Positions 20,109 to 55,379 are shown, counted from the first letter of the stretch. The stretch: DNA of 64,000 bases from Trypanosoma brucei (GCA_000002445.1 CP000071.1:2144001-2208000); one strand, 5' to 3'. The notes: generated by a model from the sequence alone, not told the origin. Translations and numbers: made by a program.

Positions 20109-21278
20109 ATGGCTAGCGTGTCATCAGGAGTTCCCCTCACCGCCCCGTCAGCGCAAAAACTATTGCAGTCTGTGAAGTACATCCTTCTCGACGTGGATGG
20201 CGTAGTGTGGTCGGGGCCGCGTGTGCTTCCCAACATTCCGCAGACATTGCAGTATTTGCGCTCACTTGGGAAGGAGATCCGCTTCCTCACGAACAACGCC
20301 TCCGTGTCGCGCAGCAGTCTCGCGCAGTTGTTTAGGCAGCGCGGCATTGAGGGCGTTAAAGAGAGTGAAGTGTACAACAGTGGCTATGCTGCCGCCCTGA
20401 GGCTGCGCCGCATTTGTGGCGCTGCAGAGGGTAATCAGGAGCGGCAAGAGGGGAACGAACCAACTAGCGATAAGAGGCTGGTGAGGGGAAATGTATTTGT
20501 TATCGGCGAGGAGGGTCTTCATGAGGAGCTGCAGCGTGTTCTTGCGCCAGGGTACATTACGTATGGGATGGAGTTACACGATGCAGAGAAGGTAGGTGGT
20601 TACAACAGCGCAAATGCAGCCACCGCGTGGAAGGAGCGCATTCTTCCGGCTCCGCTACGTCAACTGAAACCCCCTGATGGTATCACCGACTACGGAAGGG
20701 GCATTTCACTGACAGACCTCTCACCGGTGGCTGTAGTGGTAGGACTTGACCTGCATTTTAACATGCTTAAATTGGCCTATGCTTCACTCTGCCTCCATCG
20801 AGGGGCTGGCAGTAACACTGACAGTGAGGGAGATCGTATTGGAGGAGACCGTGACCGCACGCCGGATAAAGGACTTCAGAAACCTGTTTGCTTCATCGCA
20901 ACAAATGAAGACCCCCAAATACCCATTGGCGAAGAGGGACTCCTCCTTCCTGGGGCAGGTGGAATGGTTTCCGCACTGCGCACCGTATCAGGTCGGAACC
21001 CTGACGCCGTGTGCGGAAAACCGCACGTTGACATGGCGCGGATAATGTTTGAGGCAGAGGGCATCACCGATGCGCGTCAGTGCCTGATGGTGGGTGACCG
21101 CCTGACAACTGACATTGCCTTTGGTAACGCCGCTGGTTGCCGCACGCTATTTGTCCTCAGTGGCGCAGAGTCCATGGCGGACATTGCGAGGGCAAAGAGC
21201 ACCGGGGATTCGCAGCTCCTTCCTGAGTTCGTTGCGCCTTCGTTAGCCTCCTTGATGCCTGATGCACGTGACGACTAA
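20109..21278 (+). CDS. HAD-superfamily subfamily IIA phosphatase (p-nitrophenylphosphatase / phosphoglycolate phosphatase-like)
   Basis: HAD motif I ILLDVDGVVWSG (DxDG). Motif II FLTNNAS. A C-terminal motif IV MVGDRLTTDIAFGNAAGCRTLFVLSG, typical of PGP/PNPPase/CUT family IIA enzymes. Two apparent low-complexity insertions (EGNQERQEGNEPTSDKR; GAGSNTDSEGDRIGGDRDRTPDKG). Confidence 0.8.
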   Translation: MASVSSGVPLTAPSAQKLLQSVKYILLDVDGVVWSGPRVLPNIPQTLQYLRSLGKEIRFLTNNASVSRSSLAQLFRQRGIEGVKESEVYNSGYAAALRLRRICGAAEGNQERQEGNEPTSDKRLVRGNVFVIGEEGLHEELQRVLAPGYITYGMELHDAEKVGGYNSANAATAWKERILPAPLRQLKPPDGITDYGRGISLTDLSPVAVVVGLDLHFNMLKLAYASLCLHRGAGSNTDSEGDRIGGDRDRTPDKGLQKPVCFIATNEDPQIPIGEEGLLLPGAGGMVSALRTVSGRNPDAVCGKPHVDMARIMFEAEGITDARQCLMVGDRLTTDIAFGNAAGCRTLFVLSGAESMADIARAKSTGDSQLLPEFVAPSLASLMPDARDD

Positions 21279-21846: not shown

Positions 21847-23802
21847 ATGCACCGTTGGCGTCCAACGCATTGCACGCTTCAGCTCAACTTCCTGCGCCCT
21901 AGTGAATGTGGCGAGGGCCAACCTCAGGTTCTGCGAGCGGGAGATGCCTACAGTGGGACGTCCACCATCCGTTATTTGCGCTGCGACTCTAAGAAAGACG
22001 AAGGCAGCACCTCACCAGCGGTGGGTTCGCCCACCCGTAACGAGCCGAACGTTGCAATCCCACGCAAAGAGGACGGGCTGCACTTCCACGCCATAACAAA
22101 CATCCCGCATAGCCTCCCGAAGGCCTTGCCCCTCACGCTGCAATCCATGAAGGTGCAGATGGCATCGCAACGCAGCGGAGCCGCGTCTCTAAAAGTGTTG
22201 AAGGTTGTGGACGAAAGCAACAGCATCAGTGATGGTAATAAAAATAATAGTGGAACCGGCCCAACTGGGGCGAGTAGGAGCGATAAGCACGTAAAGAACT
22301 GCGAGGCACGGAAGCGTGAAAAGCAGTTCCTGAAGAAAAAGCAGCGTTGCAAAAACAGTGATGAGCACAACAGCATGGGAGGAGATGGAAGTTGTGAACA
22401 GCAGGCCGACGACCCAGGATCGAAATATGTCTATTTCGAAGGAGGAGCGGACATGCCGGCAGGTTCGACAGTCCTCTTGTCCATAGCATTCACCGGAAGG
22501 GTGCAGGCATGGGACCAAGGTGGCATTTACGCCGGGGAGCAGAGGGAGGGAGGGGCAGGTTCACGAGTTCTACTCACACATTTTGAGGTTGCCTTGGCTC
22601 GCTTGGCTTTTCCATGTCCTGATGATCCACAAGAGTACCGTATCGTATGGCAATTGCAATTACTGCAATTACCGGCGGAGTACAACATGGTGGTGAGCAA
22701 CACAACTGAGATTACAAAGAAGGCTGTGGGAAGCAGAGGCATGCAGTACTCGTTCGCTCCCATTGGACCACTGCCCGCCTATGTGATTGCCTTCGCTGCC
22801 TTCGCAGGAGCAGTTGAGGTGCTAGAAGAAGACTTGCAGCTGCGCGGACTCCCGGCCGTCGAGTACATCGAGCAAACTACTAATGGTAAGAGTCTTTCTG
22901 GCCACGATGGTAAGGGCAACCACGCGATGAGGACAGTAACGATGCGGGTTGTCACTCATGCGACGAGCGGGGTGGCTCCACCTGTACTCGCGCAAGTGGC
23001 CCACACGGCACGTGATGCCATCCGGCTACTGGAAGACTTTTTCGACTCACCGATACCTCTCCAACAGCTGCCGTTCTGTTCCTCACATTCTTCAAACGAC
23101 CACTGGGGTAGCGATTATTACTGTTGTGAGTGGCAGCAGTATGGAGGGGGTGAAACACTAACTATTGTCGTCGCACCAACAATGCCGTACATCTCGGGCA
23201 TGGAGCATCATGGTTGTATCTTTCTTAATGAATCCATCTACAGTCTTACGCAGTCCGTCGGAGGCACAGGTGCCAGAGGAGCATCAAGGTCTAACGCACC
23301 GGGTTCCGAGACCGTCGTCGAGGTGGAACGTGTGGAGCTTATCGTGCACGAGCTTGTGCATCATTGGGTGGGGAATGCCCTCGGAATGCCCTTTGTACTC
23401 AAAGAGGGCGTCTGTCAGTTAATGGAGCAGTGTCTTGGCGATGTGATTATGGGAAGGCCCATGAGAAAAGTGAGGCCTGCTGCGACGGGTGCCAACACGA
23501 CAGCGTCTAACATCAACACGGACTCGGCAAAAACGCGGGCGGATGACGCGAATTTGGTAATTGTGGATGCGGAAAAGGGAAAGGAGTTCACATTCCACTC
23601 CTATCAAAAGGCGCTAAACACACTGAGGAATGTGGTGAGCGTTATGGGGTTTAACGTATTCAAGGAGCGGATGCAACGGATGTACGCGTCGGAAGTGCTC
23701 GAGGACGCAAGAAGTAAAACCTCGTCGCTTCCACCGTATGTATCAGCAACAAAATTCATGGCCTACATGAATCCGCAAGATGCTGCGCTGTACTGTACGT
23801 GA
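21847..23802 (+). CDS. Divergent M1-family zinc metallopeptidase-like protein (aminopeptidase N / LTA4H-like fold)
   Basis: Zinc-binding motif HELVHHWVGN followed by LKEG, which corresponds to M1 HEXXH-(X18)-E (HELAHQWFGN...LNEGFA) but with about 4 fewer spacer residues. An upstream SGMEHHG may be a degenerate GAMEN exopeptidase motif. The N-terminal part of the ORF may be 5' leader; an alternative start is MKVQMASQ near 22149. Confidence 0.6.
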   Translation: MHRWRPTHCTLQLNFLRPSECGEGQPQVLRAGDAYSGTSTIRYLRCDSKKDEGSTSPAVGSPTRNEPNVAIPRKEDGLHFHAITNIPHSLPKALPLTLQSMKVQMASQRSGAASLKVLKVVDESNSISDGNKNNSGTGPTGASRSDKHVKNCEARKREKQFLKKKQRCKNSDEHNSMGGDGSCEQQADDPGSKYVYFEGGADMPAGSTVLLSIAFTGRVQAWDQGGIYAGEQREGGAGSRVLLTHFEVALARLAFPCPDDPQEYRIVWQLQLLQLPAEYNMVVSNTTEITKKAVGSRGMQYSFAPIGPLPAYVIAFAAFAGAVEVLEEDLQLRGLPAVEYIEQTTNGKSLSGHDGKGNHAMRTVTMRVVTHATSGVAPPVLAQVAHTARDAIRLLEDFFDSPIPLQQLPFCSSHSSNDHWGSDYYCCEWQQYGGGETLTIVVAPTMPYISGMEHHGCIFLNESIYSLTQSVGGTGARGASRSNAPGSETVVEVERVELIVHELVHHWVGNALGMPFVLKEGVCQLMEQCLGDVIMGRPMRKVRPAATGANTTASNINTDSAKTRADDANLVIVDAEKGKEFTFHSYQKALNTLRNVVSVMGFNVFKERMQRMYASEVLEDARSKTSSLPPYVSATKFMAYMNPQDAALYCT

Positions 23803-24336: not shown

Positions 24337-25413
24337 ATGCGACGCAGTGTTGTGACATCTCTTCACACAGCTTCGTTTGCTTCACTCACCAGAGTTGGAG
24401 TTTTCAATGTCGCTGCTGTTGCGCATTTAGCGATCCGTTCACAAACAACAATGCACGGGGCACCGGGTAATACTTCCCCAGGGCCCCGACCTCCGGTACA
24501 GCAAGGAACAGTTCCAATGCAACATCACCAGCAGATGCATCCATCGGCAGTGGGTGCGGAGGCAGAAGATGACTTTGAGCCTCCATGCAAGCCGTCGGAG
24601 CCTCCAAAAATGCTGAAGGTAGACACAAGTGACCGGGGCATCACGACAGTAGCACTTAATCGCGCACCCGTGAACTCACTCAGTCTAGAGCTCTTTGAAG
24701 AACTCAACAGTTGGATGTTGTGGCTTGGCAGCGACGAAAGTTGCAGGGCGGTCATCCTAACATCCTCCATACCCACAGTCTTCTCAGCGGGTCTGGACAT
24801 AAACGAGTTACACAATCCAGAGCCCGAGCGCCTCCGGCGCTTTTGGAAGAGCTTTCAGGAGGCGTGGCTCATTCTCAACAGCTTCCCGAAACCAATCATC
24901 GGAGCGGTTAGCGGCAATTCTCCAGCTGGTGGATGCGTTCTCGCTCTTGGTTGTGATTTTCGTGTGATGCTCCGGCACCCGACCGATAAACCCGATCGGC
25001 CATTCCGTATTGGGCTCAACGAGACGAAACTTGGTATAACCACACCACCCTGGGTTGTGCCCGCCTATGCGTACGTTCTCGGTTCGCGACGTGCTGAGAG
25101 GATGCTTCAACTTGGTGATACGCCCACCGCTGACGAAGCACTGCGAGTGGGCTTGGTTGATTTGGTTGTGGATGGGGAACAGCAGCTCCGTGAAGCAGTC
25201 TTGAAGGAGGCTGAGCGCTTCCTGTCAGTTCCACAACAATCCCGCTGGATGCTACGTGACATGCTCCGCCGCGAGTATTTGCAGGTCATTGGCTCCGAGG
25301 AAGACAGAGAATATGACACGCAGTTCTTCGTGGAGCTCATGATGAACCCGGACGTGCAGAAGAGTCTCGAAGCCTTCACAGCGCGTCTGAAGGGAGTGGC
25401 AGCGAAAAAGTAA
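24337..25413 (+). CDS. Enoyl-CoA hydratase/isomerase family protein (crotonase fold; delta3,delta2-enoyl-CoA isomerase-like), probable mitochondrial
   Basis: Crotonase core: ITTVALNRAPVNSLSLELFEEL...AVILTSSIPTVFSAGLDINEL...IIGAVSGNSPAGGCVLALGCDFRVM (oxyanion-hole and CoA-binding segments). The N-terminal about 80 aa are Arg/Ser/Thr-rich and lack the fold, consistent with a targeting or extension sequence. Confidence 0.8.
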   Translation: MRRSVVTSLHTASFASLTRVGVFNVAAVAHLAIRSQTTMHGAPGNTSPGPRPPVQQGTVPMQHHQQMHPSAVGAEAEDDFEPPCKPSEPPKMLKVDTSDRGITTVALNRAPVNSLSLELFEELNSWMLWLGSDESCRAVILTSSIPTVFSAGLDINELHNPEPERLRRFWKSFQEAWLILNSFPKPIIGAVSGNSPAGGCVLALGCDFRVMLRHPTDKPDRPFRIGLNETKLGITTPPWVVPAYAYVLGSRRAERMLQLGDTPTADEALRVGLVDLVVDGEQQLREAVLKEAERFLSVPQQSRWMLRDMLRREYLQVIGSEEDREYDTQFFVELMMNPDVQKSLEAFTARLKGVAAKK

Positions 25414-25669
25414 CTTAAATAAACTGTCCAGCAAGAGAACGAAGTTTGATTACTATTTTTTTATTTTATTTTCGGTGGCAACCCGTGAACGAAGTGCGCC
25501 TTGTGAAACCGGGGAAACGCAGCCCTTCCCCTCAGTGGTAAAAATGAGGATGGCGAACGGGTATTTAACGCATTTAATCACAAACGTATCGTATGCAAAA
25601 ACACTCACAGGTGTGTGGAGAAGTTCATAAAGAAAGCTACATCAGAAAAGGGGGCGCAAAGTCGCGTGT

Positions 25670-28600
25670 GTGGTGCGCCTGCAAACCTTTTACCGCCCTT
25701 TCTTGCGTAAAAATTGTTGGCAAAAGGGTAAAGAGGGTCAAAGGTGTCGAAGACTAGTTGCACATGTTACAGACGTTGTAATAAACATGTGTGTGGGTAC
25801 AGTGCCCACACTCTCCCTTGCGTTACGTTTACCTCACGCGCATGGTTACTCACCTTTCATTTTCTCTGGCATCTACGCTCTCTCGTATACCATTAGTGAT
25901 CGTAGGACAACGAAATTGATAGGAATGCTGGACACCAATGGGACTGCAGAACTCACCGTGCACTGTGCGAGTCCGCTACAGCCCTCAAGTAACAGTCGTA
26001 ACTCGAAGCAGTTAAGCCCCATAACACCGATCGCCAGCACCATCCACTCGGCAAGCGCCAACAGTCCACTCTCTCAATGCCAGCAGAACACCGCAGAGGT
26101 TGGCATCGGGGGACCGCACTTTGCGCTTGCATTGACTGCTGTCGGGGCTGACACCGCTGCCGGGGAGGCGGTTTCCATTGCAAACGGAACATTCAGTGGC
26201 AACGGGCTCTCGGCCTACGTATCGAAATTGTCGGAAATAGTTGGTGAACCGCCATTTACAGAGGAAGAGATACTTGAAGAATTGGAAAAACTGCGCACAC
26301 GCTCACAGCTAACGTCAGCACCTTTCAACCGTCGATTATTACCCATACTTGCACGGTATCAGCTAAGAGAGAAGTGGGGGCCAGCAGCGGAGCCGTACGC
26401 CGAGCGTCTCGTCACAGATGATGGTTCAGTGGTTCCTTCATTCCTCCCAGAATTGCATCGTATTCGTGAAAGACGGCAGCAGCTGGATAAGGTGCAGAAG
26501 TGCCGCTCCTTCCACTGCTACAAAATACCACCACCACCGCTCCGACCCCAAGGAGAAACATCCACCACGCGACCACTACTGGAGGAGGAGTTAGTCGCGG
26601 CCAAACAGTTTACACGTTCTTGGCTGGGGCCTTCTCACAAAGCAACGCCTGATACCAATGATTACAAACACACTTTCAACAACGAGGGACAACAAACGCC
26701 AAGGGGGAAAAGAATCCCTGATGTGTTTTCCAGTCCGCAGACACCACAGACGCCGACAACGGAAAAAGATCACACGGCTCCGCAGCGGTTGCAAACTCCC
26801 ACCCAGATACACACGGCAATGCAGTCCAGTCGCACCAAGACTATGCTGGTTAACAGTACCATAGACATCCCAAATAATCAGGGAAACGATGCCAATGAAT
26901 CCCGTATACGAGGTATGAGTGCCAGCAGCCTGCTGGTTAACAGTACCATAGACATCCCAAATAATCAGGGAAACGATGCCAATGAATCCCGTATACGAGG
27001 TATGAGTGCCAGCAGCCTGCTGGTTAACAGTACCATAGACATCCCAAATAATCAGGGAAACGATGCCAATGAATCCCGTATACGAGGTATGAGTGCCAGC
27101 AGCCTGCTGGTTAACAGTACCATGGGCATCCCAAATAATCAGGGAAACGATGCCAATGAATCCCGTATACGAGGTATGAGTGCCAGCAGCCTGCTGGTTA
27201 ACAGTACCATAGACATCCCAAATAATCAGGGAAACGATGCCAATGAATCCCGTATACGAGGTATGAGTGCCAGCAGCCTGCTGGTTAACAGTACCATAGA
27301 CATCCCAAATAATCAGGGAAACGATGCCAATGAATCCCGTATACGAGGTATGAGTGCCAGCAGCCTGTTGGTTAACAGTACCATGGGCATCCCAAATAAT
27401 CAGAGAAACGATGCCAATGAATCCCGTATACGAGGTATGAGTGCCAGCAGCCTGTTGGTTAACAGTACCATGGGCATCCCAAATAATCAGGGAAACGATG
27501 CCAATGAATCCCGTATACGAGGTCTGAGTGCCAGCAGCCTGTTGGTTAACAGTACCATGGACATCCCAAATAATCAGGGAAACGATGCCAATGAATCCCG
27601 TATACGAGGTATGAGTGCCAGCAGCCTGTTGGTTAACAGTACCATGGGCATCCCAAATAATCAGGGAAACGATGCCAATGAATCCCGTATACGAGGTATG
27701 AGTGCCAGCAGCCTGCTGGTTAACAGTACCATAGACATCCCAAATAATCAGGGAAACGATGCCAATGAATCCCGTATACGAGGTATGAGTGCCAGCAGCC
27801 TGCTGGTTAACAGTACCATGGGCATCCCAAATAATCAGGGAAACGATGCCAATGAATCCCGTATACGAGGTCTGAGTACCAGCAGCCTGTTGGTTAACAG
27901 TACCATGGACATCCCAAATAATCAGGGAAACGATGCCAATGAATCCCGTATACGAGGTCTGAGTACCAGCAGCCTGTTGGTTAACAGTACCATAGACATC
28001 CCAAATAATCAGGGAAACGATGCCAATGAATCCCGTATACGAGGTATGAGTGCCAGCAGCCTGTTGGTTAACAGTACCATGGGCATCCCAAATAATCAGG
28101 GAAACGATGCCAATGAATCCCGTATACGAGGTATGAGTGCCAGCAGCCTGTTGGTTAACAGTACCATGGGCATCCCAAATAATCAGGGAAACGATGCCAA
28201 TGAATCCCGTATACGAGGTATGAGTGCCAGCAGCCTGCTGGTTAACAGTACCATGGGCATCCCAAATAATCAGGGAAACGATGCCAATGAATCCCGTATA
28301 CGAGGTCTGAGTGCCAGCAGCCTGCTGGTTAACAGTACCATAGACATCCCAAATAATCAGGGAAACGATGCCAATGAATCCCGTATACGAGGTCTGAGTG
28401 CCAGCAGCCTGTTGGTTAACAGTACCATGGGCATCCCAAATAATCAGGGAAACGATGCCAATGAATCCCGTATACGAGGTATGAGTGCCAGCAGCCTGTT
28501 GGTTAACAGTACCATAGACATCCCAAATAATCAGGGAAACGATGCCAATGAATCCCGTATACGAGGTCTGAGTGCCAGCAGCCTGCTGGTTAACAGTACC

Positions 28601-29254
28601 ATAGACATCCCAAATAATCAGGGAAACGATGCCAATGAATCCCGTATACGAGGTCTGAGTGCCAGCAGCCTGTTGGTTAACAGTACCATGGACATCCCAA
28701 ATAATCAGGGAAACGATGCCAATGAATCCCGTATACGAGGTCTGAGTACCAGCAGCCTGTTGGTTAACAGTACCATGGGCATCCCAAATAATCAGGGAAA
28801 CGATGCCAATGAATCCCGTATACGAGGTCTGAGTGCCAGCAGCCTGTTGGTTAACAGTACCATGGGCATCCCAAATAATCAGGGAAACGATGCCAATGAA
28901 TCCCGTATACGAGGTATGAGTGCCAGCAGCCTGTTGGTTAACAGTACCATGGACATCCCAAATAATCAGGGAAACGATGCCAATGAATCCCGTATACGAG
29001 GTCTGAGTACCAGCAGCCTGTTGGTTAACAGTACCATAGACATCCCAAATAATCAGGGAAACGATGCCAATGAATCCCGTATACGAGGTCTGAGTGCCAG
29101 CAGCCTGTTGGTTAACAGTACCATGGGCATCCCAAATAATCAGGGAAACGATGCCAATGAATCCCGTATACGAGGTCTGAGTGCCAGCAGCCTGTTGGTT
29201 AACAGTACCATGGGCATCCCAAATAATCATGGACGGAGTGCGAAAAATATTTGA
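25670..29254 (+). CDS. Repetitive protein: unique about 390-aa N-terminal region followed by about 27.5 tandem copies of a 29-aa unit (LLVNSTIDIPNNQGNDANESRIRGMSASS)
   Basis: A long + strand ORF whose 3' 2.4 kb is a near-perfect 87-bp tandem repeat held in one reading frame. The stop lies just past the last (degenerate) unit, NNHGRSAKNI. The true start is probably an internal Met (e.g. MCVGTV or MLDTNGTAE). Confidence 0.6.
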   Translation: MVRLQTFYRPFLRKNCWQKGKEGQRCRRLVAHVTDVVINMCVGTVPTLSLALRLPHAHGYSPFIFSGIYALSYTISDRRTTKLIGMLDTNGTAELTVHCASPLQPSSNSRNSKQLSPITPIASTIHSASANSPLSQCQQNTAEVGIGGPHFALALTAVGADTAAGEAVSIANGTFSGNGLSAYVSKLSEIVGEPPFTEEEILEELEKLRTRSQLTSAPFNRRLLPILARYQLREKWGPAAEPYAERLVTDDGSVVPSFLPELHRIRERRQQLDKVQKCRSFHCYKIPPPPLRPQGETSTTRPLLEEELVAAKQFTRSWLGPSHKATPDTNDYKHTFNNEGQQTPRGKRIPDVFSSPQTPQTPTTEKDHTAPQRLQTPTQIHTAMQSSRTKTMLVNSTIDIPNNQGNDANESRIRGMSASSLLVNSTIDIPNNQGNDANESRIRGMSASSLLVNSTIDIPNNQGNDANESRIRGMSASSLLVNSTMGIPNNQGNDANESRIRGMSASSLLVNSTIDIPNNQGNDANESRIRGMSASSLLVNSTIDIPNNQGNDANESRIRGMSASSLLVNSTMGIPNNQRNDANESRIRGMSASSLLVNSTMGIPNNQGNDANESRIRGLSASSLLVNSTMDIPNNQGNDANESRIRGMSASSLLVNSTMGIPNNQGNDANESRIRGMSASSLLVNSTIDIPNNQGNDANESRIRGMSASSLLVNSTMGIPNNQGNDANESRIRGLSTSSLLVNSTMDIPNNQGNDANESRIRGLSTSSLLVNSTIDIPNNQGNDANESRIRGMSASSLLVNSTMGIPNNQGNDANESRIRGMSASSLLVNSTMGIPNNQGNDANESRIRGMSASSLLVNSTMGIPNNQGNDANESRIRGLSASSLLVNSTIDIPNNQGNDANESRIRGLSASSLLVNSTMGIPNNQGNDANESRIRGMSASSLLVNSTIDIPNNQGNDANESRIRGLSASSLLVNSTIDIPNNQGNDANESRIRGLSASSLLVNSTMDIPNNQGNDANESRIRGLSTSSLLVNSTMGIPNNQGNDANESRIRGLSASSLLVNSTMGIPNNQGNDANESRIRGMSASSLLVNSTMDIPNNQGNDANESRIRGLSTSSLLVNSTIDIPNNQGNDANESRIRGLSASSLLVNSTMGIPNNQGNDANESRIRGLSASSLLVNSTMGIPNNHGRSAKNI
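26845..29235 (+). repeat. 87-bp tandem repeat, about 27.5 copies, over 95% identical; variants confined to a few codons (ATA/ATG, GAC/GGC, ATG/CTG, GCC/ACC, CTG/TTG)
   Basis: Direct reading: the period is 87 nt (atagacatcc at 26861 and again at 26948). Counting the ESRIRG motif in the translation gives 27 complete units plus one partial. The 879-aa ORF on the opposite strand (26591..29230) exists only because the repeat lacks stops in that frame. Confidence 0.95.
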
Positions 29255-30410
29255 AAAGGGGCTAGTTTTGCCTCATTTTCTCAAGTTACATTTTTATTTA
29301 AGTGGGATGCCCTTAAATTTTTCAGTGGTTACGCTCTTTCGTTTCCTAGTGTGGCCTTTTGTGGCGTTGTCTTTTATTGGAGATTTTAACGTTCGAGGAT
29401 GGCTGCGGGGCCTCCAGTTGTTACTAGCTTCTGTTGAGAGTGATTGTTCTTTTTCCTTTCTCTCTACATACTTTACATGAAGAAAGCTGCTATGTTTCTG
29501 TTTTCTAACCATATTTTCCTCTTGTTGATATATTTGTTACAGTCGTTGCTACTGTACGCACTTAAATTTTTTACTCAGATGAATTTCCGTCGTCATTATT
29601 AATATTATTCCTACTTGTCCATTTCACTGCTAAGGTGAGTGTTAAATAGAGTTGTGTACATATCTGGCATTAACATGGTGTCCAAACCAAGATAAATTGA
29701 AACGTAGTCAACTTATTTTTTTTTTTTCAAACATTTTAGAATGTGCGCTCGGGTGTCGTGGGGATCTTTTCACGCTATTTGAGGTTGATGATTGTTACTT
29801 GGATATACTCGAAATTGAACTTTAAGTCACGGCCATCATTCTTGTGGGGACACACGCTGGTTGGCAGTTGCATTTTCTTACGGGAAAGGTAGGGAGGGTA
29901 AAGCAAAGCAAAACTAAAAGTGTGGAGGAGGGGTCCTGCACTTATTTATTGACGGACTAATTTGTCACGTTTACTTGACGAATTATTTTCCCAGGGGAAA
30001 GAGGTGCTTTGGAAGCTGCTGCAACAAAAGTAAAGGAGGGACAGTGGCGCTCGCGCTGCCATCCCCGATGGGGAATATTCCAATAATTGCGCGTGCATCC
30101 GCATCCTTTTCTAGTGTCTGACCGTGTGATTGCCGGCTTTATTTTTTCTTTTTCATCCACGCTTCTCACCTCCTTCGTTTCTTGGCGTCACCACCGCGGT
30201 TATTGTTATTGATGTCATTGGATTTTTGCGGAAGTTTGCTGCTTTCTTTTTCGTTCCGCCTGTTTATGTATCCTACTCTCGTTGGCTTTGTTTGATCCTA
30301 ATCACAGTCCACAGGGGGTTGCCCAGGTGAAGTAACGTAAGTACTTAGTGGAGGTGCTTTAGTGAACAAGAAGATAAATAGAAAAAGGTGCGGGAGAGGT
30401 AGAGAGGGAA

Positions 30411-31943
30411 ATGCCCCAAACGGTTCAGAAGCGACAAACACACGGAAGGAGCCGGCGTGGTTACGATTTTGTCCTTGAAGGCGTCCCTATGTACGATTCA
30501 CCGGACATAAGTAGTGACAGCAGTGACATAGAGCGTACACGCACCATGGCACCACCCCATGGACAAAATTGGGGCCCAGCCGCGTATCCTAAACCATCAG
30601 CAGCGGGTGCGGTAGCTCCACCGTACCGCCACCAGAAACAACAACAACAACAGCAGCAACAGCAGCAAGAACATGCCCGGCAACAACTACTCTTGCAGCA
30701 AAAGTGGTTGGAACAACAACAGGCGGCATTCCACCAACGACAGCAGGAGTTGTCTCGTGCAGAATATCAACGATCTCACAAAACACAACAGCAAAGCCAA
30801 CAGTCATCCCACAACCACACAGAAACGCGCGATGCACGCAGAACTATCATGGGCGACTCCACGGGACGCGGCAGCCGCGAACGCTGCCCGCCAGTGGATG
30901 ATATTGACTACGTAAAATACTTCCCGGAGAGGGGGCCACGCGTAATGGAATACACGTCACCTGGGTTCAATACCAACCCCTCCACCACCGTAGCCCAACA
31001 CATTCAAAGTGGCCACAATGCACAGTTCACCACCATGCGGCCTTCGGCCCGTAGCCAGCAGCATTTGGAATGTCCCGGCAACCACAACAACACCGTGGTG
31101 GGAGCCTACGGGACGGGGGAGACAGCTGATACGAGAAATACGGGGGCCAGGGAGACGGCAATCGTTGGTGGAGGCGTACATTACGGGGCCCAGAGCTTAC
31201 AAGCCACCGGCAAGTGCGCGGCCAGGTATGCAAGTACGCTTTATTTGGAAAATGACCATCCGTCAGCTCAAGTGCCCAACGGGTACACCGTAGAGATGGG
31301 AAACTCAGGTCTTTTCACTCTAGCTAACTATCCTGATGCGGACAAGGGGGCCGTAACGAACGAAAACCGCTTCAGCGGCGGAGCCGTCAAGCCGCGGTGG
31401 ACATCTGTGAGCACCACCCCCATGGAATGTCGTACACCACCTTCAGTTGCCACTGCACCGCAGTACAGGAACACAGCAGCTTGTGATTCTACAGGCGGAG
31501 ATATCTTCTCTGGGGATTATGAATTTATGCCTGTTGAATTGGGGCAGTGTGACTTCCGCACCCTCCACGCGGTTACCCTCTCTACAGAACCCACACCACC
31601 CTTCACGCCGTCGCACGCTAGTGTGGAATCGAGAGGCGGAAAAAGGAACGCCCTATTGCCCCCAGTGGGGCACAGAGACTTATCGTATTTTGAATCATTG
31701 CCACAGAAGCAACAAAAGCAGCAGAGACGAACATCTAAACAGGGAGATGTGCAAGACGTTAGTGAAGCATCTCTCCCATTCGCGGTACCACAGGAGTACC
31801 AGTATTTAAACAATGACTTGACCGATCCAAATTCGAGTCTTCCGGCCCCTGCTATGTCGGTTGAAACCACACATAAGTCTGAGAAGGCACAAACGCGGAA
31901 GGTTATCGACTCGTCCAATCCCCGACGGTGGATTGTGCTGTAG
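30411..31943 (+). CDS. Hypothetical protein with poly-glutamine tract (Q-rich low complexity)
   Basis: A 510-aa co-oriented ORF. A (CAA/CAG)n run at about 30637-30672 encodes Q14. Q/S/T/P-rich, with no recognisable domain. Confidence 0.45.
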   Translation: MPQTVQKRQTHGRSRRGYDFVLEGVPMYDSPDISSDSSDIERTRTMAPPHGQNWGPAAYPKPSAAGAVAPPYRHQKQQQQQQQQQQEHARQQLLLQQKWLEQQQAAFHQRQQELSRAEYQRSHKTQQQSQQSSHNHTETRDARRTIMGDSTGRGSRERCPPVDDIDYVKYFPERGPRVMEYTSPGFNTNPSTTVAQHIQSGHNAQFTTMRPSARSQQHLECPGNHNNTVVGAYGTGETADTRNTGARETAIVGGGVHYGAQSLQATGKCAARYASTLYLENDHPSAQVPNGYTVEMGNSGLFTLANYPDADKGAVTNENRFSGGAVKPRWTSVSTTPMECRTPPSVATAPQYRNTAACDSTGGDIFSGDYEFMPVELGQCDFRTLHAVTLSTEPTPPFTPSHASVESRGGKRNALLPPVGHRDLSYFESLPQKQQKQQRRTSKQGDVQDVSEASLPFAVPQEYQYLNNDLTDPNSSLPAPAMSVETTHKSEKAQTRKVIDSSNPRRWIVL

Positions 31944-33997: not shown

Positions 33998-35692
33998 ATG
34001 ATACCGAATGGCGGGGAAGCTGCAGGTGCATCACGCGAGCACACGCAGGGGCAGAACGCAGGCAGTTGCGCCCTCAACGTAGGAACAAATGGGAAGTGGG
34101 AGCCTTACGGGTACAATTACAGGGAAAGGGAGCAATCACATTTGAACAGTTCGAGGGGAGCACCGCTGCAGGTACGGGTCGTTGTGCAACTCCCCAACGG
34201 CACCGTGCGCGAGTGGAAAGATTTTGCGCAGTTGCAGGCACTACCCCAAATTCTCCGTGAGGTGTATACCACCACACCAGACCAAGGTCGTAGTTCGGCG
34301 GGATCCCTCTCACCGTTAAAATTCTTCTGGATAGATATGAGCGGCATGCCGCAGCGGGAAGATCTGAGTGCCCTATTCGAGCTCCTTCACGTGTGCAAAC
34401 ATACGGAGCGAAGGTGGCGAGCTATGGCAGCAGCGCCTCCCGGGGTCGGGTTAGGCGGGTTTCCGCTAAATAATGGCACCTGCGAAGAAGGGGCGGAGCG
34501 GTCTCACTATGACGAAGATGATTATTACGACAATGCAACGGAGCTCGACTACTTACGGGCCTTCGTTGCGGAGCAGTATGTTCAGATTAGCCTTACGGTT
34601 CTTGAATCACCAAACGTGACGGTGTATGGATTACCAATGGAAAAGGACACTGAAAGGGAAATGGGCACTGAGAAGCACCAACGGCAGCGAGAGGGCTCGC
34701 GGCCGAACCTTCTCGACGCGTGTGAGTCAGGAACCCTGGCTTCTGTGCAAGTGTTGTGCTTCGTCAATGGAGTCGTCACCTGGCGGCCACAGCCGGCGGT
34801 GGAAGGGTGGGAATACATTCCCCACGGTCTCGAACGTAGACTGAGTAACAGCACCAACATTGGTGATGGCAGAGCAGTTGGTGACGGCAACGAGGGACCG
34901 CGCGGAGCACTAACCACGTCTCTGCTTGTACTCACCATTCTCGACGAACTTTATATGGCTTTCCTTCCAGATACGACAATAGTGCTCAGCGAGGTGGATA
35001 CAATCGACTCTATGTTGCCACTTGTCCGACAGCGAATGTCAGACCAGGCGGACATATTGAGGCGCATTCAAATGTTGCGTCGGAGTTTGTCGGTACATCG
35101 GCGCGTGCTGATGAGCAAGGTTAGTGTGCTTGAGCTCTTGAGCAGACCCACTGTGCGCGTACTCTTACCCTTCATGAATCCAATCACGGACGCCGTCAAT
35201 GAAAAAGAACGGGAGCATTGTCGCGAGCCATTTGACCCCCGCGTGTATCAACCGAGACACCGCCACGGAGAATTGCACTACGACCAGTCTGAAGCAATGG
35301 CAAGGCGCGCCCCTTCATCAGGGCAACAGAGCGACACCTACGCAGATATCGCCTGTCGCATTCTGCACGTCCTTTCTAAGCTCGAGGACGCGCGCAGGAT
35401 TCTCACAAACTCTATCATCATCCACTCCTCGGGTGTTGCGGCGGTGAACAACTACAACAGCAATCAGTCTGATACCCTCAGCATTACGCTGGGCTACGTT
35501 GCTTTGATGTCCCTGCCCCCAACTATCGTAGCTTCGCAATGGGGAATGAACGTTTACGTCCCGTGGGTGGATACGAATTCTACCGTGCCCTTCTGGGGTA
35601 TTGTAGGTGCGGTGACGGCATACGCGGCCCTCGTGCTCTCCTATCCAATATTCTGTTGGATCAGGGGCAGACCGGACAAACTAGTCTTTTAG
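33998..35692 (+). CDS. Putative CorA/MRS2-family (MIT) Mg2+ transporter-like protein
   Basis: A large soluble N-terminal region, then two C-terminal TM helices. TM1 (LSITLGYVALMSLPPTIVASQW) ends in a GMN motif (QWGMNVYVPW). TM2 is FWGIVGAVTAYAALVLSYPIFCWI, with a short basic C-tail. This topology and GMN position are diagnostic of CorA/Mrs2 channels. The rest of the protein is too divergent to confirm by eye. Confidence 0.5.
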   Translation: MIPNGGEAAGASREHTQGQNAGSCALNVGTNGKWEPYGYNYREREQSHLNSSRGAPLQVRVVVQLPNGTVREWKDFAQLQALPQILREVYTTTPDQGRSSAGSLSPLKFFWIDMSGMPQREDLSALFELLHVCKHTERRWRAMAAAPPGVGLGGFPLNNGTCEEGAERSHYDEDDYYDNATELDYLRAFVAEQYVQISLTVLESPNVTVYGLPMEKDTEREMGTEKHQRQREGSRPNLLDACESGTLASVQVLCFVNGVVTWRPQPAVEGWEYIPHGLERRLSNSTNIGDGRAVGDGNEGPRGALTTSLLVLTILDELYMAFLPDTTIVLSEVDTIDSMLPLVRQRMSDQADILRRIQMLRRSLSVHRRVLMSKVSVLELLSRPTVRVLLPFMNPITDAVNEKEREHCREPFDPRVYQPRHRHGELHYDQSEAMARRAPSSGQQSDTYADIACRILHVLSKLEDARRILTNSIIIHSSGVAAVNNYNSNQSDTLSITLGYVALMSLPPTIVASQWGMNVYVPWVDTNSTVPFWGIVGAVTAYAALVLSYPIFCWIRGRPDKLVF

Positions 35693-37056: not shown

Positions 37057-38691
37057 TTGGCACCTCCTTTTTCTATTTTTGCTGCATTTGCAGAAAAGGA
37101 AGGGGACAACGCTGCGCCATCAGCGCTGATGACATACAATGAGGCGGCGCTGTCAAAGTATCGCGGCCTGCTGGATAGCGGTGAGCCGTTTCGCAGCAGG
37201 ACATGCCGATACTGTTCCAGTGGAAACACGGCGGTAAAGCATATAAACAGCAAAAAGAAACCCAATTCGCCGTGGGACTTTTGGAACGGCATTGCTTGTT
37301 CCCCAACCGCCTCACATGCACGCGCGGAGGGGCGCAAGAGGACGCCAATGTATGTTGTGGGACCAATGGTGGACCAAAGCGAACTGCCATTCCGTCTGCT
37401 CTGTCGGCGTTATGGGGCTACACTGGCATACACCCCAATGTTTCATGCAAAGAGCTTCGCCCAAAGTGCACACTACCGCCAACGCTACTTTTCAACAACA
37501 ACATTTCCTCCACATTCCGCCATGGAATCAGGGGGAAATGTTGCCGCTAACGATAGCACCAGTAACGATGGGGCATTAGATAATGACCATCCGCTGTTCG
37601 CTCAGTTCTGTGGAAATGACCCTGAAACCGTCCTTGCCGCCGCTCGACATGTGGAGGATTACTGCGAGGCCGTTGATTTCAACATCGGTTGCCCGCAAGG
37701 CATCGCCCGCCGTGGCCATTATGGCTCGTTCCTCATGGAGGACTGGGAATTGCTTCACAACATTCTCCATGCGTTAGCAGTTGAGCTTCGCGTCCCTGTA
37801 ACAGCAAAAATGAGAATATTTGACGATGAGGCACTGACACTAAAATACGCTGAGATGCTGCGTGACACGGGAATCTATGTCCTCTGTGTGCATGGCCGGA
37901 CCCGCGAAAACAAGGGACAGCAACAGCAGCCCGCAGACCTACGAATGATACGCCGTGTGCACGAGCATTTGAGGGGTTCTATTCCTATCATTGCAAACGG
38001 CAACGTGCTTACATTCGAGGACGTGCCACGAAACTTAGCCATAACGGGTTGCGAAGGATATATGTGCGCAGAGCCTCTGCTGTGGGATCCGAAGTTGTTT
38101 GCACCGTTAGCTTCAAGTTCGACCGCGGAGTTCGCTCCCAACATAACCGATTCAACCTTATCAACTTCTCCAGCACCGTCCACAGTTCGCAGTGGTCGGC
38201 TCTTTGCGGAGTCCCGGCCGACACGTCTGAAAGCACTGGCCACGGCGTCAGAATACCTGGAGCTAGTTCGTCGTTTCCCTGTGGACATTGGTTTCGTCAA
38301 GGCGCACTTCTTCAAGATGCTGTACCACAGCTATGAAATGCATCCGGCGCATCAACAGTGGCTAGCAAATTTCAGCATTAATGGCAGTAACGTTGGCAAC
38401 GATGTTGTCGAAAACTGTGCGACGAGTCACTGCGGCGAGCAAAGGGAAACGACGGTGGTGGGCCGCGATATCTTCACAGCGGCTCTTGACGCCCTAACCG
38501 ATCATCTTCATTCGCTTCAGAAAGCCGAACTTTCGTTAGAACACGACGGCCCGCAGCCGAAGCGTCAGCGGGAGCTTAAGGTGGGAGAAGAAGGAAAGGA
38601 ACGGCAGCAGCTGAAGAATGGAAGGAGAGTGGACGCTTTAACGGATACCTTTGCGGATGACGAAACGCTTGGCATCGACTTCTTGATGTGA
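37057..38691 (+). CDS. tRNA-dihydrouridine synthase (Dus family; Dus1-like)
   Basis: A Dus/TIM-barrel flavoenzyme. Motifs seen: PMVDQSELPFRLLCRRYGATLAYTPM; the FMN/catalytic region LFAQFCGNDPE...VDFNIGCPQ (catalytic Cys); VPVTAKMRI (conserved Lys); LCVHGRT; PIIANGNV. The N-terminal about 90 aa of the ORF may be leader; MYVVGPM is a possible start. Confidence 0.8.
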   Translation: MAPPFSIFAAFAEKEGDNAAPSALMTYNEAALSKYRGLLDSGEPFRSRTCRYCSSGNTAVKHINSKKKPNSPWDFWNGIACSPTASHARAEGRKRTPMYVVGPMVDQSELPFRLLCRRYGATLAYTPMFHAKSFAQSAHYRQRYFSTTTFPPHSAMESGGNVAANDSTSNDGALDNDHPLFAQFCGNDPETVLAAARHVEDYCEAVDFNIGCPQGIARRGHYGSFLMEDWELLHNILHALAVELRVPVTAKMRIFDDEALTLKYAEMLRDTGIYVLCVHGRTRENKGQQQQPADLRMIRRVHEHLRGSIPIIANGNVLTFEDVPRNLAITGCEGYMCAEPLLWDPKLFAPLASSSTAEFAPNITDSTLSTSPAPSTVRSGRLFAESRPTRLKALATASEYLELVRRFPVDIGFVKAHFFKMLYHSYEMHPAHQQWLANFSINGSNVGNDVVENCATSHCGEQRETTVVGRDIFTAALDALTDHLHSLQKAELSLEHDGPQPKRQRELKVGEEGKERQQLKNGRRVDALTDTFADDETLGIDFLM

Positions 38692-55350: not shown

Positions 55351-55379
55351 CCACAAAGACACTTAACCACCAAAAGAAA

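What the first reader, a model, noticed from the sequence alone, without database searches (positions are those of the whole stretch)
26845..29235. About 27.5 near-identical 87-bp coding tandem repeats (29-aa unit with an N-glycosylation sequon): repetitive-antigen-like protein
The unit LLVNSTIDIPNNQGNDANESRIRGMSASS is repeated about 27.5 times with over 95% nucleotide identity. Variation is restricted to five codon positions (I/M, D/G, M/L, A/T, and a silent CTG/TTG) that recombine freely between units, which indicates recent expansion and concerted evolution. Each unit carries an N-x-T sequon (VNST) and is Asn/Ser/Gln-rich. The unique N-terminal 390 aa are Pro/Thr/Gln-rich.

Trypanosomatid proteins with long perfect repeats are frequently immunodominant B-cell antigens or cytoskeleton-associated proteins, and their repeat number is usually polymorphic between strains. 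I do not recognise this particular unit.
Basis: partly seen in the sequence, partly recalled or inferred. Interest (0 to 1): 0.6.

Follow-up and report, generated by a model that had tools for sequence, protein, structure and literature searches.

The report
Repeat array of flagella connector protein FCP3
The 27 near-identical 29-residue repeats are real. They form most of a known Trypanosoma brucei flagellar cytoskeleton protein, almost certainly FCP3 of the flagella connector, not a secreted glycosylated antigen, so the find is mostly ordinary.

Summary
There are 27 full 87-bp units and a partial 28th at 26843-29227, 97% identical, with no indels and in frame on the + strand.

The gene lies in a Trypanosoma brucei chromosome 8 polycistron. 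Five literature anchors fix the gene numbering (Tb927.8.7490, .7510, .7550, .7560, .7580, with the chr 4 paralog Tb927.4.4910). By position the repeat gene is Tb927.8.7540. That gene is FCP3, a published marker of zone 4 of the flagella connector, the dense layer under the old-flagellum membrane.

The protein has no signal peptide or transmembrane segment, so the N-x-S/T sequons are probably composition by-products.

- **Domain.** Residues 96-205 form a conserved helical domain with no Pfam, PDB or fold match.
- **Orthologs.** Syntenic orthologs occur in T. vivax and Leishmania mexicana. Sequence homologs occur in T. congolense, T. theileri, Leptomonas, Novymonas and Angomonas.
- **Arrays.** Most homologs carry their own homogenised array of 24-48 aa units, with a G-G-Y-G-S-V-M core in Leishmaniinae. 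T. theileri shares the 29-aa period.
- **Fold.** AlphaFold2 predicts a beta-solenoid for the T. brucei repeats (pLDDT 90.7, single sequence; treat with caution).
- **C-terminus.** The T. brucei protein lacks the family's C-terminal motifs. A similar motif opens the next gene, Tb927.8.7550.

Verdict: a known gene; the family-level details may be new; interest is modest.

The parts
25925..29254 (+). Coding sequence of the repeat protein: 1109 aa, about 118 kDa, pI 5.7. Inferred to be Tb927.8.7540 = FCP3. An alternative in-frame ATG lies at 25787. The mechanical ORF starts at a GTG at 25670.
   Evidence: ORF listing. The start at 25925 aligns with the annotated start of the T. congolense homolog. 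Mass and pI. Identity is by gene order.
26006..26041 (+). Short conserved N-terminal motif KQLSPITPIAST.
   Evidence: Identical in T. congolense P0001. Leptomonas proteins carry a similar 'QLSP'.
26210..26539 (+). Conserved helical domain (residues 96-205), the signature of the family. It runs from PPFTEEEILEELEKLR through LLPILARYQLREKWGPAAEPYAERL and SFLPELHRIRERR to HCYKIPP.
   Evidence: - A profile search of 1.84 billion representative proteins found 16 hits; I judge 14 to be trypanosomatid family members (E 1e-54 to 1e-10) and two spurious.
- tblastn of these proteins back to the window hits only this region.
- AlphaFold2 model: pLDDT 84.4, five helices.
- No Pfam match and no PDB sequence match.
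26540..26842 (+). Thr/Pro/Gln-rich linker (residues 206-306) between the domain and the repeats. It is poorly conserved.
   Evidence: Composition T18 P11 Q10 %. The alignment is weak here.
26843..29191 (+). 27 full 87-bp, 29-aa units with consensus LLVNSTMDIPNNQGNDANESRIRGMSASS.
   Evidence: Eleven unit haplotypes occur in a non-periodic order. AlphaFold2 on 10 units gives an all-beta model with one coil per unit, pLDDT 90.7.
29192..29254 (+). Partial 28th unit (LLVNSTMGIPNN, 29192-29227), then the unique tail HGRSAKNI and a TGA stop.
   Evidence: and the sequence. The family's C-terminal motifs are absent from this ORF.
29255..30410 (+). Non-coding spacer: the 3' UTR of the repeat gene, then polypyrimidine tracts ahead of the next gene.
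   Evidence: Only short ORFs in all frames. T-rich tracts at about 30130-30300. Aligned at 99.7% to T. equiperdum contig L002, which breaks inside the repeat.
30411..31943 (+). Neighbouring gene Tb927.8.7550 (510 aa). Its residues 13-41 (RSRRGYDFVLEGVPMYDSPDISSDSSDIE, 30447-30533) resemble the C-terminal motif of FCP3-family proteins of other species.
   Evidence: - 100% identical to T. equiperdum TEOVI_000191000; chr 4 paralog at 30% identity; matches the Tb927.8.7550 / Tb927.4.4900 pair in PMC2212663.
- Motif HMM against the six-frame window: top hit, E 0.015, next best 2.1.
- hhalign probability 82%, E 1e-5.
- BLASTP against T. vivax P0003, E 9e-4.

Best explanation
The array is the main body of a non-secreted flagellar cytoskeleton protein of Trypanosoma brucei. 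It is almost certainly FCP3 (Tb927.8.7540), a component of the flagella connector. [quoted passage not shown]

Published work places FCP3 in zone 4, the electron-dense layer just under the old-flagellum membrane. Zone 4 sits between the intermembrane layer (FC1, FCP1) and the filaments that reach the old axoneme (the kinesin FCP2).

**Proposed mechanism (inferred, not shown).** The conserved N-terminal helical domain is the docking module. It is shared by all trypanosomatid homologs. The 27 repeats are the structural module. They either stack into a rigid beta-solenoid rod, one coil per unit and about 13 nm for 27 coils, or act as a multivalent, self-associating Asn/Ser-rich array. Either way they would build the dense plate.

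**Evolution of the array.** Unequal crossing-over and gene conversion keep the units nearly identical within a species. Period, length and sequence drift between species. The N-x-S/T sequons are side effects of the Asn/Ser-rich composition and are not used.
For: **Identity by position.** The window's + strand gene order is a 1445-aa gene, a small gene, HAD phosphatase, M1 peptidase, enoyl-CoA isomerase, the repeat gene, a 510-aa gene, CorA, Dus and a RING protein. The anchors are:
- Tb927.8.7510 is the HAD p-nitrophenylphosphatase (PMC5098729).
- Tb927.8.7550 / Tb927.4.4900 are hypothetical paralogs with 28% CDS sequence identity (PMC2212663). I measure 30% amino-acid identity between the 510-aa gene and its paralog.
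- Tb927.8.7560 is annotated 'TMH', which fits CorA. Tb927.8.7580 is a 'Zn-finger', which fits RINGv.
- Tb927.8.7490 / Tb927.4.4930 are 98.7% identical. I measure 99%.
[quoted passage not shown] That matches the isomerase-then-paralog order on the chr 4 contig L003.
- Exactly three ORFs fill the numbers .7520, .7530 and .7540, so the repeat gene is .7540.

[quoted passage not shown] It represents zone 4, under the old-flagellum membrane (PMC11555346).

**Not secreted.** There is no hydrophobic segment.

**An ancient family.**
- The helical domain is found in 14 trypanosomatid proteins.
- Synteny holds: M1 peptidase and the isomerase lie upstream of the homolog in T. vivax and L. mexicana.

**Arrays across the family.**
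- L. braziliensis: 24 aa, at least 25 copies.
- L. mexicana: 40 aa, 8 copies.
- Novymonas: 25 aa, 12 copies.
- Angomonas: about 28 aa.
- T. theileri: 87 bp, 29 aa.

**Fold.**
- AlphaFold2 on 10 units gives pLDDT 90.7, pTM 0.87, all-beta, with the same strand pattern in each unit.
- The highest-ranked Foldseek hits are mostly beta-helix proteins.
- The common unit polymorphisms are conservative: I/M and M/L are hydrophobic swaps, and D/G lies at the edge of the first predicted strand.
Against: - The identification rests on gene order and literature, not on a sequence match. No T. brucei copy of this protein was returned by the protein search or by the exact look-up. The original FCP3 paper (Varga et al. 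2017) is not in the library.
- The structural role is an inference. Premature severing of the flagellar connection was reported after depletion of FCP1, FCP2, FCP4 and FC1, not FCP3 (PMC9826329).
- The beta-solenoid comes from a single-sequence AlphaFold2 run. The other four models scored only 66-77, and no PDB match was significant (all E > 0.1).
- To my knowledge AlphaFold2 tends to over-predict solenoids on perfect repeats.
- The Gly/Ser/Ala-rich units of Leishmania homologs look disordered.
- Similarity of the T. brucei unit to other species' units is only marginal: p about 0.07 against T. theileri, 0.06 against Angomonas, and not significant against Leishmania.
Confidence: 0.8

Rival explanations
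1. One reading: a secreted or surface-exposed, N-glycosylated repetitive antigen that the mammalian host's B cells see.
For: - Long, nearly perfect in-frame repeats are typical of trypanosomatid serodiagnostic antigens (general knowledge).
- There are two N-x-S/T sequons per unit, about 55 in all.
- The T. theileri and Angomonas units are also rich in N-x-S/T.
Against: - There is no signal peptide or transmembrane segment with either candidate start.
- N-terminally eYFP-tagged FCP3 still localises correctly (PMC6771564). An N-terminal signal peptide would not tolerate that.
- FCP3 is assigned to the layer under the old-flagellum membrane (PMC11555346).
- The flagella connector is absent from bloodstream forms, and tagged FCP3 there is cytoplasmic (PMC9826329).
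- Two sequons per unit against about one expected from composition is not a meaningful excess (my own estimate from the composition).
Confidence: 0.04
2. The gene is FCP3, but the array is a functionally neutral, intrinsically disordered spacer that expanded by replication slippage or unequal crossing-over. Only the N-terminal domain matters.
For: - The two T. vivax paralogs have the domain and the C-terminal motifs but no repeats at all.
- Period, copy number and sequence differ widely between species.
- Lengths within one 90%-identity cluster of L. braziliensis-group proteins range from 1300 to 2493 aa.
- No FCP3 depletion phenotype is cited.
Against: - An array is kept at the corresponding place in most lineages examined, apart from T. 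vivax, Leptomonas seymouri and two unnamed homologs. This includes T. theileri with the same 29-aa period and Leishmaniinae with a conserved GGYGSVM core (p <= 0.004 between their units).
- All arrays stay in frame, and the T. brucei array has no indels.
- Common substitutions in T. brucei units are conservative.
- AlphaFold2 gives a confident ordered model.
Confidence: 0.2
3. The copy number, or the early stop right after the array, is an assembly artefact. The true gene has fewer or more units and continues into a conserved C-terminal region, as in other species.
For: - The T. equiperdum short-read contig ends inside the array.
- The T. theileri homolog is broken by runs of N within its array.
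- Homologs in other species have C-terminal motifs that this ORF lacks.
- A look-alike of one of these motifs opens the next ORF.
Against: - The array is contiguous with no N.
- Its 11 different unit haplotypes occur in an irregular order. That is not what a collapse or an artificial duplication produces.
- The junction from the array into unique sequence aligns at 99.7% with T. equiperdum, including the stop and 1.15 kb of spacer with only short ORFs in any frame.
- The next gene is in a different frame, has its own upstream stop and polypyrimidine tract, and has a T. vivax homolog as a separate gene.
Confidence: 0.07
4. The positional identification is wrong. The ORF is an unnamed neighbour and not the FCP3 gene.
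For: No sequence-level confirmation was possible.
Against: Five independent literature anchors fit the window's gene order with no gap or surplus. The Lister 427 identifier Tb427.08.7540 is also called FCP3.
Confidence: 0.08

Closest known systems
FCP3 (flagella connector protein 3, Tb927.8.7540 / Tb427.08.7540) of Trypanosoma brucei (Varga et al. 2017; PMC6771564; PMC11555346)
   Same: The chromosomal slot is the same, between the enoyl-CoA isomerase Tb927.8.7530 and Tb927.8.7550. The protein is non-secreted, which fits a layer under the flagellar membrane.
   Different: Nothing is known to differ. I could not retrieve the deposited sequence, so sequence identity is inferred. The papers I could read say nothing about the repeat array, the N-terminal domain or the family.
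Syntenic orthologs and sequence homologs annotated only as 'hypothetical protein' in other trypanosomatids. Examples: L. mexicana E9B223 (P0007), L. braziliensis XP_001567243 (P0008), Leptomonas pyrrhocoris A0A0N0DUB9 (P0006), T. vivax G0TZR1 (P0003), T. congolense TCIL3000_8_7790 (P0001), T. theileri TM35_000262300 (P0002).
   Same: They share the N-terminal helical domain. Gene order is shared in T. vivax and L. mexicana, where it could be checked. Most carry an internal, species-homogenised tandem array. T. theileri has the same 87-bp period.
   Different: - The T. brucei protein is short. Leishmaniinae proteins are 1700-2500 aa.
- Its unit has lost the GGYGSVM core.
- It lacks the C-terminal motifs: H-x-K-H-x-N-L in Leishmaniinae and T. 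theileri, and ILDVPGVPYVESPD ... W-x-RGL-x-WQR.
- The T. vivax copies have no repeats.
- To my knowledge a flagella connector has not been described in Leishmania and the monoxenous genera, so the ancestral role must be something else.
Other repeat-rich flagellum and attachment-zone cytoskeleton proteins of T. brucei (FAZ1, ClpGM6, FLAM3). The comparison is from general knowledge and from the reference lists.
   Same: They are large, non-secreted cytoskeletal proteins whose bulk is a long array of near-identical units. They sit at a membrane-cytoskeleton junction of the flagellum.
   Different: There is no sequence relationship. Unit length and composition differ. Some of those repeats (GM6) are established serodiagnostic antigens; this one is not.
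Beta-solenoid (beta-helix) repeat proteins such as antifreeze proteins, the left-handed beta-helix of GlmU, pectate-lyase-like folds and phage tailspikes.
   Same: The AlphaFold2 model stacks one coil per unit. The highest-ranked Foldseek hits are mostly such proteins.
   Different: No hit is significant: E > 0.1, TM-score 0.1-0.35. A 29-residue coil with two long strands matches no known class. The model is unvalidated.

Membership tests
FCP3 = Tb927.8.7540 (identity of the gene) | Chromosomal position on T. brucei chr 8 between Tb927.8.7530 and Tb927.8.7550, within the chr 4 / chr 8 duplicon. | tested here: met
   Gene order in the window fits the published identifiers.7490.7550.7560 and .7580 (PMC2212663).7510 (PMC5098729), and Tb927.4.4910 for the chr 4 isomerase (PMC8509533). 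Three ORFs fill the three free numbers.
FCP3 = Tb927.8.7540 (identity of the gene) | Sequence identity to the deposited Tb927.8.7540 protein. | not testable with these tools
   No T. brucei-group copy came back from the protein search. The exact look-up found nothing. Varga et al. 2017 is not held.
FCP3 = Tb927.8.7540 (identity of the gene) | Localisation to the old-flagellum side (zone 4) of the flagella connector in procyclic cells. | not testable with these tools
   Literature only: PMC6771564 and PMC11555346.
Trypanosomatid FCP3-like family (defined here) | N-terminal helical domain (FTEEE-L-ELE-LR ... PFN ... LPILA-Y-LR-K-G ... SFLP ... HHY-I-PP). | tested here: met
   The window sequence is one of the three used to build the search profile A2. 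A profile search with it recovers 14 trypanosomatid proteins, E 1e-54 to 1e-10. tblastn of those proteins back to the window hits only 26189-26554 within the domain region, E down to 1e-29.
Trypanosomatid FCP3-like family (defined here) | Conserved gene order: M1 peptidase and enoyl-CoA isomerase upstream. | tested here: met
   T. vivax L004 has HAD, M1, ECH, the homolog, CorA, Dus and RINGv in that order. L. mexicana L006 has M1, ECH, two small genes, then the homolog.
Trypanosomatid FCP3-like family (defined here) | Internal tandem array homologous to the G-G-Y-G-S-V-M arrays. | tested here: inconclusive
   An array is present. Unit similarity is marginal: against T. theileri p about 0.07 with the same 29-aa period, against Angomonas p about 0.06, and not significant against Leishmania. 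Leishmaniinae units are clearly related to each other, p <= 0.004.
Trypanosomatid FCP3-like family (defined here) | C-terminal motifs ILDVPGVPYVESPD ... W-x-RGL-x-WQR, and H-x-K-H-x-N-L upstream of them. | tested here: not met
   The ORF stops 8 codons after the array. The motif HMM finds nothing in this ORF; its only hit is the start of the next gene. No K-H-x-N-L motif occurs in any frame of the window.
Trypanosomatid tandem-repeat B-cell antigens | Long array of near-identical in-frame repeats. | tested here: met
Trypanosomatid tandem-repeat B-cell antigens | Recognised by sera of infected hosts; expressed in the mammalian stage. | not testable with these tools
   No serology is available. 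The literature argues against exposure: the connector is absent from bloodstream forms, and tagged FCP3 is cytoplasmic there.
N-glycosylated secretory or surface protein | Signal peptide or membrane anchor giving access to the ER lumen. | tested here: not met
   The maximum 19-residue Kyte-Doolittle mean is 1.2, with either start at 25787 or 25925. This is a hydropathy check only; no dedicated predictor was available.
Beta-solenoid repeat proteins | One beta coil per repeat unit stacking into a rod, resembling a solved solenoid. | tested here: inconclusive
   The AlphaFold2 single-sequence model is all-beta and periodic, pLDDT 90.7, but the other four models score 66-77. The highest-ranked Foldseek hits are mostly beta-helix proteins, but none has E < 0.1.

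The most novel reading that the evidence does not exclude
The FCP3 repeats are a building block, not filler. Each 29-residue unit forms one coil of a new two-sheet beta-solenoid. The resulting rods of about 13 nm pack side by side to make the electron-dense plate under the old-flagellum membrane.

The array descends from an ancient G-G-Y-G-S-V-M motif array. That array is present in a trypanosomatid-wide family that predates the flagella connector. If so, T. brucei built its connector plate by re-using and re-shaping an older flagellar junction protein. In doing so it shed the protein's C-terminal motifs, which survive in permuted order in the adjacent Tb927.8.7550 family.
Probability: 0.15. 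Interest if true: 0.55.

Novelty: already known. Interest (0 to 1): 0.3.

Why it matters
The flagella connector is an unusual mobile junction that passes cell shape from mother to daughter trypanosome. How its dense plates are built is still unknown.

Recognising that the zone 4 marker FCP3 is about 70% repeat array gives concrete experiments. One can change the repeat number and measure plate thickness and connection stability. One can also test a recombinant repeat fragment for folding or self-assembly.

Homologs with their own arrays exist in Leishmania and in monoxenous trypanosomatids. To my knowledge no flagella connector has been described in those organisms. This suggests the protein had an older flagellar role that could be found by tagging the Leishmania ortholog.

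For the scan itself, the lesson is that this eye-catching repeat is a known cytoskeletal gene and not a new antigen.

Tried and rejected
- **Protein search, unique N-terminal part.** Only the T. congolense and T. theileri homologs were returned, and no T. brucei copy. The neighbouring gene does have its T. brucei-group entry in the same database, so the target protein seems to be missing from it.
- **Protein search, 15-sequence domain alignment.** It returned nothing at all, for reasons I cannot explain.
- **Exact look-ups.** The repeat protein, the isomerase ORF and the T. congolense protein were not on record.
- **Literature searches.** The repeat peptide and the T. congolense identifier gave 0 papers. 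Varga et al. 2017 could not be read by DOI or PMC id. No tagging primers were found in supplements.
- **'Recent gene fission' idea, weakened.** I first thought T. brucei had split one ancestral gene into FCP3 plus Tb927.8.7550. T. vivax, however, has a separate Tb927.8.7550 homolog next to a full-length FCP3-like paralog that keeps its own C-terminal motif. The Tb927.8.7550 family contains no trace of the N-terminal domain.
- **Chr 4 copy.** I looked for an FCP3 paralog on the chr 4 duplicon and found none between the isomerase and Tb927.4.4900 paralogs.
- **The - strand ORF.** The 879-aa ORF was rejected as a repeat artefact.
- **Rfam.** No RNA family was found in the window.

Full report
**1. 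The observation**

Tandem Repeats Finder reports a single array at 26847-29233: period 87, 27.4 copies, 97% matches, no indels, score 4410. It is the only array scoring at least 150 in the 64-kb window.

Cutting the array in the reading frame gives three pieces:
- 27 full units at 26843-29191;
- a partial 28th unit, LLVNSTMGIPNN;
- eight unique codons (HGRSAKNI) and a stop at 29252-29254.

The 27 units fall into 11 haplotypes in no regular order. Seven of ten site pairs show all four gametes. Exchange between units is therefore frequent, although I+G never occurs and T is always linked to L.

The unit carries two sequons (NST, NES). The array is real, coding and far beyond chance.

**2. Strand, frame and gene model**

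All but one of the ORFs of at least 250 aa lie on the + strand. That is the signature of a trypanosomatid polycistron. The 879-aa ORF on the - strand inside the array is a by-product of a stop-free repeat.

The + strand ORF runs from 25670 to 29254. The ATG at 25925 aligns with the annotated start of the T. congolense homolog. An in-frame ATG at 25787 cannot be excluded.

From 25925 the protein has 1109 aa, about 118 kDa and pI 5.7. It has no hydrophobic segment: the best 19-residue Kyte-Doolittle mean is 1.2.

Downstream there are 1.15 kb without long ORFs, with T-rich tracts ahead of the next gene.

**3. Which gene it is**

Pfam assigns the neighbours as follows:
- HAD phosphatase, 20109-21278
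- M1 peptidase, 21847-23802
- enoyl-CoA hydratase/isomerase, 24337-25413
- CorA, 33998-35692
- Dus, 37057-38691
- RINGv, 39282-41903
- an array of amino-acid transporter genes from 50025 onward

The 510-aa gene at 30411-31943 is 100% identical to T. equiperdum TEOVI_000191000. It has a 30%-identical paralog, P0025.

Published identifiers fit this order exactly:
- Tb927.8.7510 is the HAD p-nitrophenylphosphatase (PMC5098729).
- Tb927.8.7550 / Tb927.4.4900 are hypothetical paralogs with 28% CDS sequence identity. Tb927.8.7560 is 'TMH', and Tb927.8.7580 is a 'TMH/SP Zn-finger'. Tb927.8.7490 / Tb927.4.4930 are 98.7% identical (PMC2212663).
- I measure 99% identity between the window's 1445-aa gene and the chr 4-type contig L003.
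[quoted passage not shown] That matches the isomerase paralog immediately before P0025 on L003.

Three ORFs (M1 peptidase, isomerase, repeat gene) fill the numbers .7520, .7530 and .7540. So the repeat gene is Tb927.8.7540.

That identifier is FCP3, flagella connector protein 3:
[quoted passage not shown] I could not confirm the identity by sequence. The protein database returned no T. brucei copy, the exact look-up failed, and the original paper is not held. I put the identification at about 0.9.

**4. The family**

A profile of the conserved core searched against 1.84 billion representative proteins found 16 hits. I judge two of them to be spurious repeat proteins (P0005, P0016; sequences). 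The other 14 are trypanosomatid proteins, and every one that carries a source name is annotated as hypothetical:
- T. congolense, T. theileri and T. vivax (two paralogs in T. vivax)
- L. mexicana, the L. braziliensis group and further Leishmania-like proteins
- Leptomonas seymouri and L. pyrrhocoris
- Novymonas and Angomonas
- two unnamed assemblies

The domain (window 26210-26539, residues 96-205) gives a confident five-helix AlphaFold2 model, pLDDT 84.4. It has no match anywhere I looked:
- Pfam
- PDB sequences
- Foldseek against PDB, best E = 2

Orthology is supported by gene order:
- T. vivax has HAD, M1, ECH, the homolog, CorA, Dus and RINGv.
- L. mexicana has M1, ECH, two small genes, then the homolog.

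The chr 4 duplicon of the T. brucei group has the isomerase and Tb927.4.4900 paralogs but no FCP3 paralog.

**5. Repeat arrays are a family trait**

The homologs carry these arrays:

| Species (protein) | Unit | Copies |
|---|---|---|
| L. braziliensis | 24 aa, [24 protein letters not shown] | at least 25 |
| L. mexicana | 40 aa | 8 |
| Novymonas | 25 aa | 12 |
| Leishmania-like P0010 and P0011 | 40 aa | 3 and about 7 |
| Leptomonas pyrrhocoris | 48 aa | about 1.6 |
| Angomonas | about 28 aa, GFGSVMDQTSTMNRTNNTSGQSGETSNA, plus an 18-aa array | not counted |
| T. theileri | 87 bp, 29 aa, QNNSSAFAGNSTSGGYGMNSMLNGTASEV | broken by assembly gaps |

Only the T. vivax paralogs, Leptomonas seymouri and the two unnamed homologs lack an array.

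Shuffling tests on the units gave the following:
- Leishmaniinae and Angomonas units are clearly related (p <= 0.004).
- T. theileri is related to L. braziliensis and Novymonas (p 0.02-0.03).
- The T. brucei unit is only marginally similar to T. theileri (p about 0.07, an ungapped in-register match over the whole unit) and to Angomonas (p about 0.06, sharing STM..NN....E).

Lengths within one 90%-identity cluster of L. braziliensis-group proteins range from 1300 to 2493 aa. The T. equiperdum contig ends inside the array. Copy number is therefore unstable, assembly-dependent, or both.

The array is thus old at this locus. What is recent is the homogenisation of the units.

**6. What the repeats may do**

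AlphaFold2 on ten units without an alignment gave an all-beta model with the same strand pattern in every unit. The best model has pLDDT 90.7 and pTM 0.87; the other four have 66-77.

The highest-ranked Foldseek PDB hits are mostly beta-helix proteins (GlmU, polygalacturonases, tailspikes, antifreeze). None is significant: E > 0.1, TM-score 0.1-0.35.

Reading the strand assignment against the sequence is my own inference. L1, V3 and I7 of the long strand, I22 of the short strand and M25 could form a thin core. The charged residues of A-N-E-S-R-I-R would face out.

The common polymorphisms I/M and M/L are then conservative core changes. D/G lies at the edge of the first predicted strand, next to the following turn. 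At 0.48 nm per coil, 27 coils give about 13 nm.

I treat this as a hypothesis. To my knowledge AlphaFold2 over-predicts solenoids on perfect repeats, and the Gly/Ser/Ala-rich units of Leishmania homologs look disordered.

The alternative is a multivalent, self-associating Asn/Ser-rich array. Either version fits a protein that marks an electron-dense plate (Hoog et al. 2016, PMC4731218).

Published depletion phenotypes concern FCP1, FCP2, FCP4 and FC1, not FCP3 (PMC9826329). The function of FCP3 is therefore not established.

**7. The antigen/glycoprotein reading**

This reading is not supported:
- There is no signal peptide or anchor.
- An N-terminal eYFP tag is tolerated.
- The assigned position is under the membrane.
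- The connector is absent from bloodstream forms, where tagged FCP3 is cytoplasmic.

Two sequons per unit is close to what the Asn/Ser content predicts (about one per unit by my estimate). Seroreactivity cannot be excluded without an assay, but exposure to the host is unlikely.

**8. The missing C-terminus and the neighbour**

Other family members end with ILDVPGVPYVESPD ... W-x-RGL-x-WQR. Leishmaniinae and T. theileri also have H-x-K-H-x-N-L upstream of it. The T. brucei ORF has neither.

An HMM of the C-terminal motif searched against all six frames of the window has one hit that stands out. It is the first 40 residues of the next gene, Tb927.8.7550 (RSRRGYDFVLEGVPMYDSPDISSDSSDIE), with E 0.015 against a next best of 2.1. 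Two further tests support it:
- hhalign probability 82%, E 1e-5
- BLASTP against the T. vivax ortholog P0003, E 9e-4

I first read this as a gene fission. Later evidence weakens that reading:
- T. vivax has a separate homolog of Tb927.8.7550 (L007 12881-14239). It has the same N-terminal motif and a shared C-terminal motif, V-x-DSS-x-PR-x-W.
- That homolog lies directly downstream of the second FCP3-like paralog, which keeps its own C-terminal motif.
- The Tb927.8.7550 family has no N-terminal domain.

So the two adjacent families share two short motifs, in permuted order. Their relationship is unresolved. It also follows that the label 'T. brucei spp.-specific' for Tb927.8.7550 is too narrow.

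**9. Verdict**

It is wrong in its emphasis on glycosylation and antigenicity.

The gene is known and named. The following points may not have been described, but they are incremental:
- the trypanosomatid-wide family
- the conserved unknown helical domain
- the recurring arrays with a GGYGSVM core
- the predicted solenoid
- the lost C-terminus

Interest is 0.3.

Noticed in passing
window 30411-31943 (motif at 30447-30533); L003 10001-11509; L007 12881-14239: The gene after FCP3 (Tb927.8.7550, labelled 'T. brucei spp.-specific') opens with RRGxDFVLEGVPMYDSPDISSDSSD. This resembles the C-terminal motif of FCP3-family proteins of other species.

It has a chr 4 paralog and an unannotated-looking T. 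vivax homolog that shares the N-terminal motif and a C-terminal V-x-DSS-x-PR-x-W motif. So the family is not T. brucei-specific.

In FCP3-like proteins the two motifs occur in the opposite order (NPRxW first, then VPGVPFVDSPD).
   Followed up: partly
window 13670-18007 against L003 1-4832: The 1445-aa gene (Tb927.8.7490) is 99% identical at the DNA level to its chr 4-type copy over 4.8 kb. The neighbouring paralog pairs are only 30-71% identical at the protein level. This fits the mosaic of conserved and divergent paralogs described for the chr 4 / chr 8 duplicon (PMC2212663) and suggests gene conversion.
   Followed up: partly
window 50025-62233: There is a tandem array of amino-acid transporter genes (Pfam Aa_trans). 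One 565-aa ORF is followed by four 498-aa ORFs spaced 2495-2725 bp apart. This period is too long for the tandem-repeat tool. From memory it is probably the Tb927.8.7600-7700 AAT7 cluster; this was not checked.
   Followed up: no
L002 1-108 (T. equiperdum CZPT02001416.1) and L001 10815-13327 (T. theileri): Public short-read assemblies break or are padded with N exactly inside this gene's repeat array. The homolog is therefore truncated or split into 'partial' proteins in those annotations. The T. congolense protein of 279 aa also looks truncated.
   Followed up: partly
window 25545-25925: Several short upstream ORFs lie between the first polypyrimidine tract / AG after the isomerase gene and the likely FCP3 start. 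Examples are ATG at 25545 and ATG at 25764. There is also an alternative in-frame ATG at 25787. The true 5' end needs spliced-leader mapping.
   Followed up: no
protein search: A profile search with a 15-sequence alignment of the conserved domain returned no hit at all. Yet a single-sequence search had found two members of the same family in the same database. This looks like a tool or index quirk rather than biology.
   Followed up: no
P0008, P0017-P0022 (L. braziliensis group): Proteins of one 90%-identity cluster range from 1300 to 2493 aa, mostly because of different numbers of the 24-aa unit. Some are cut at the array. This points to copy-number polymorphism or assembly collapse in the Leishmania homologs.
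   Followed up: no
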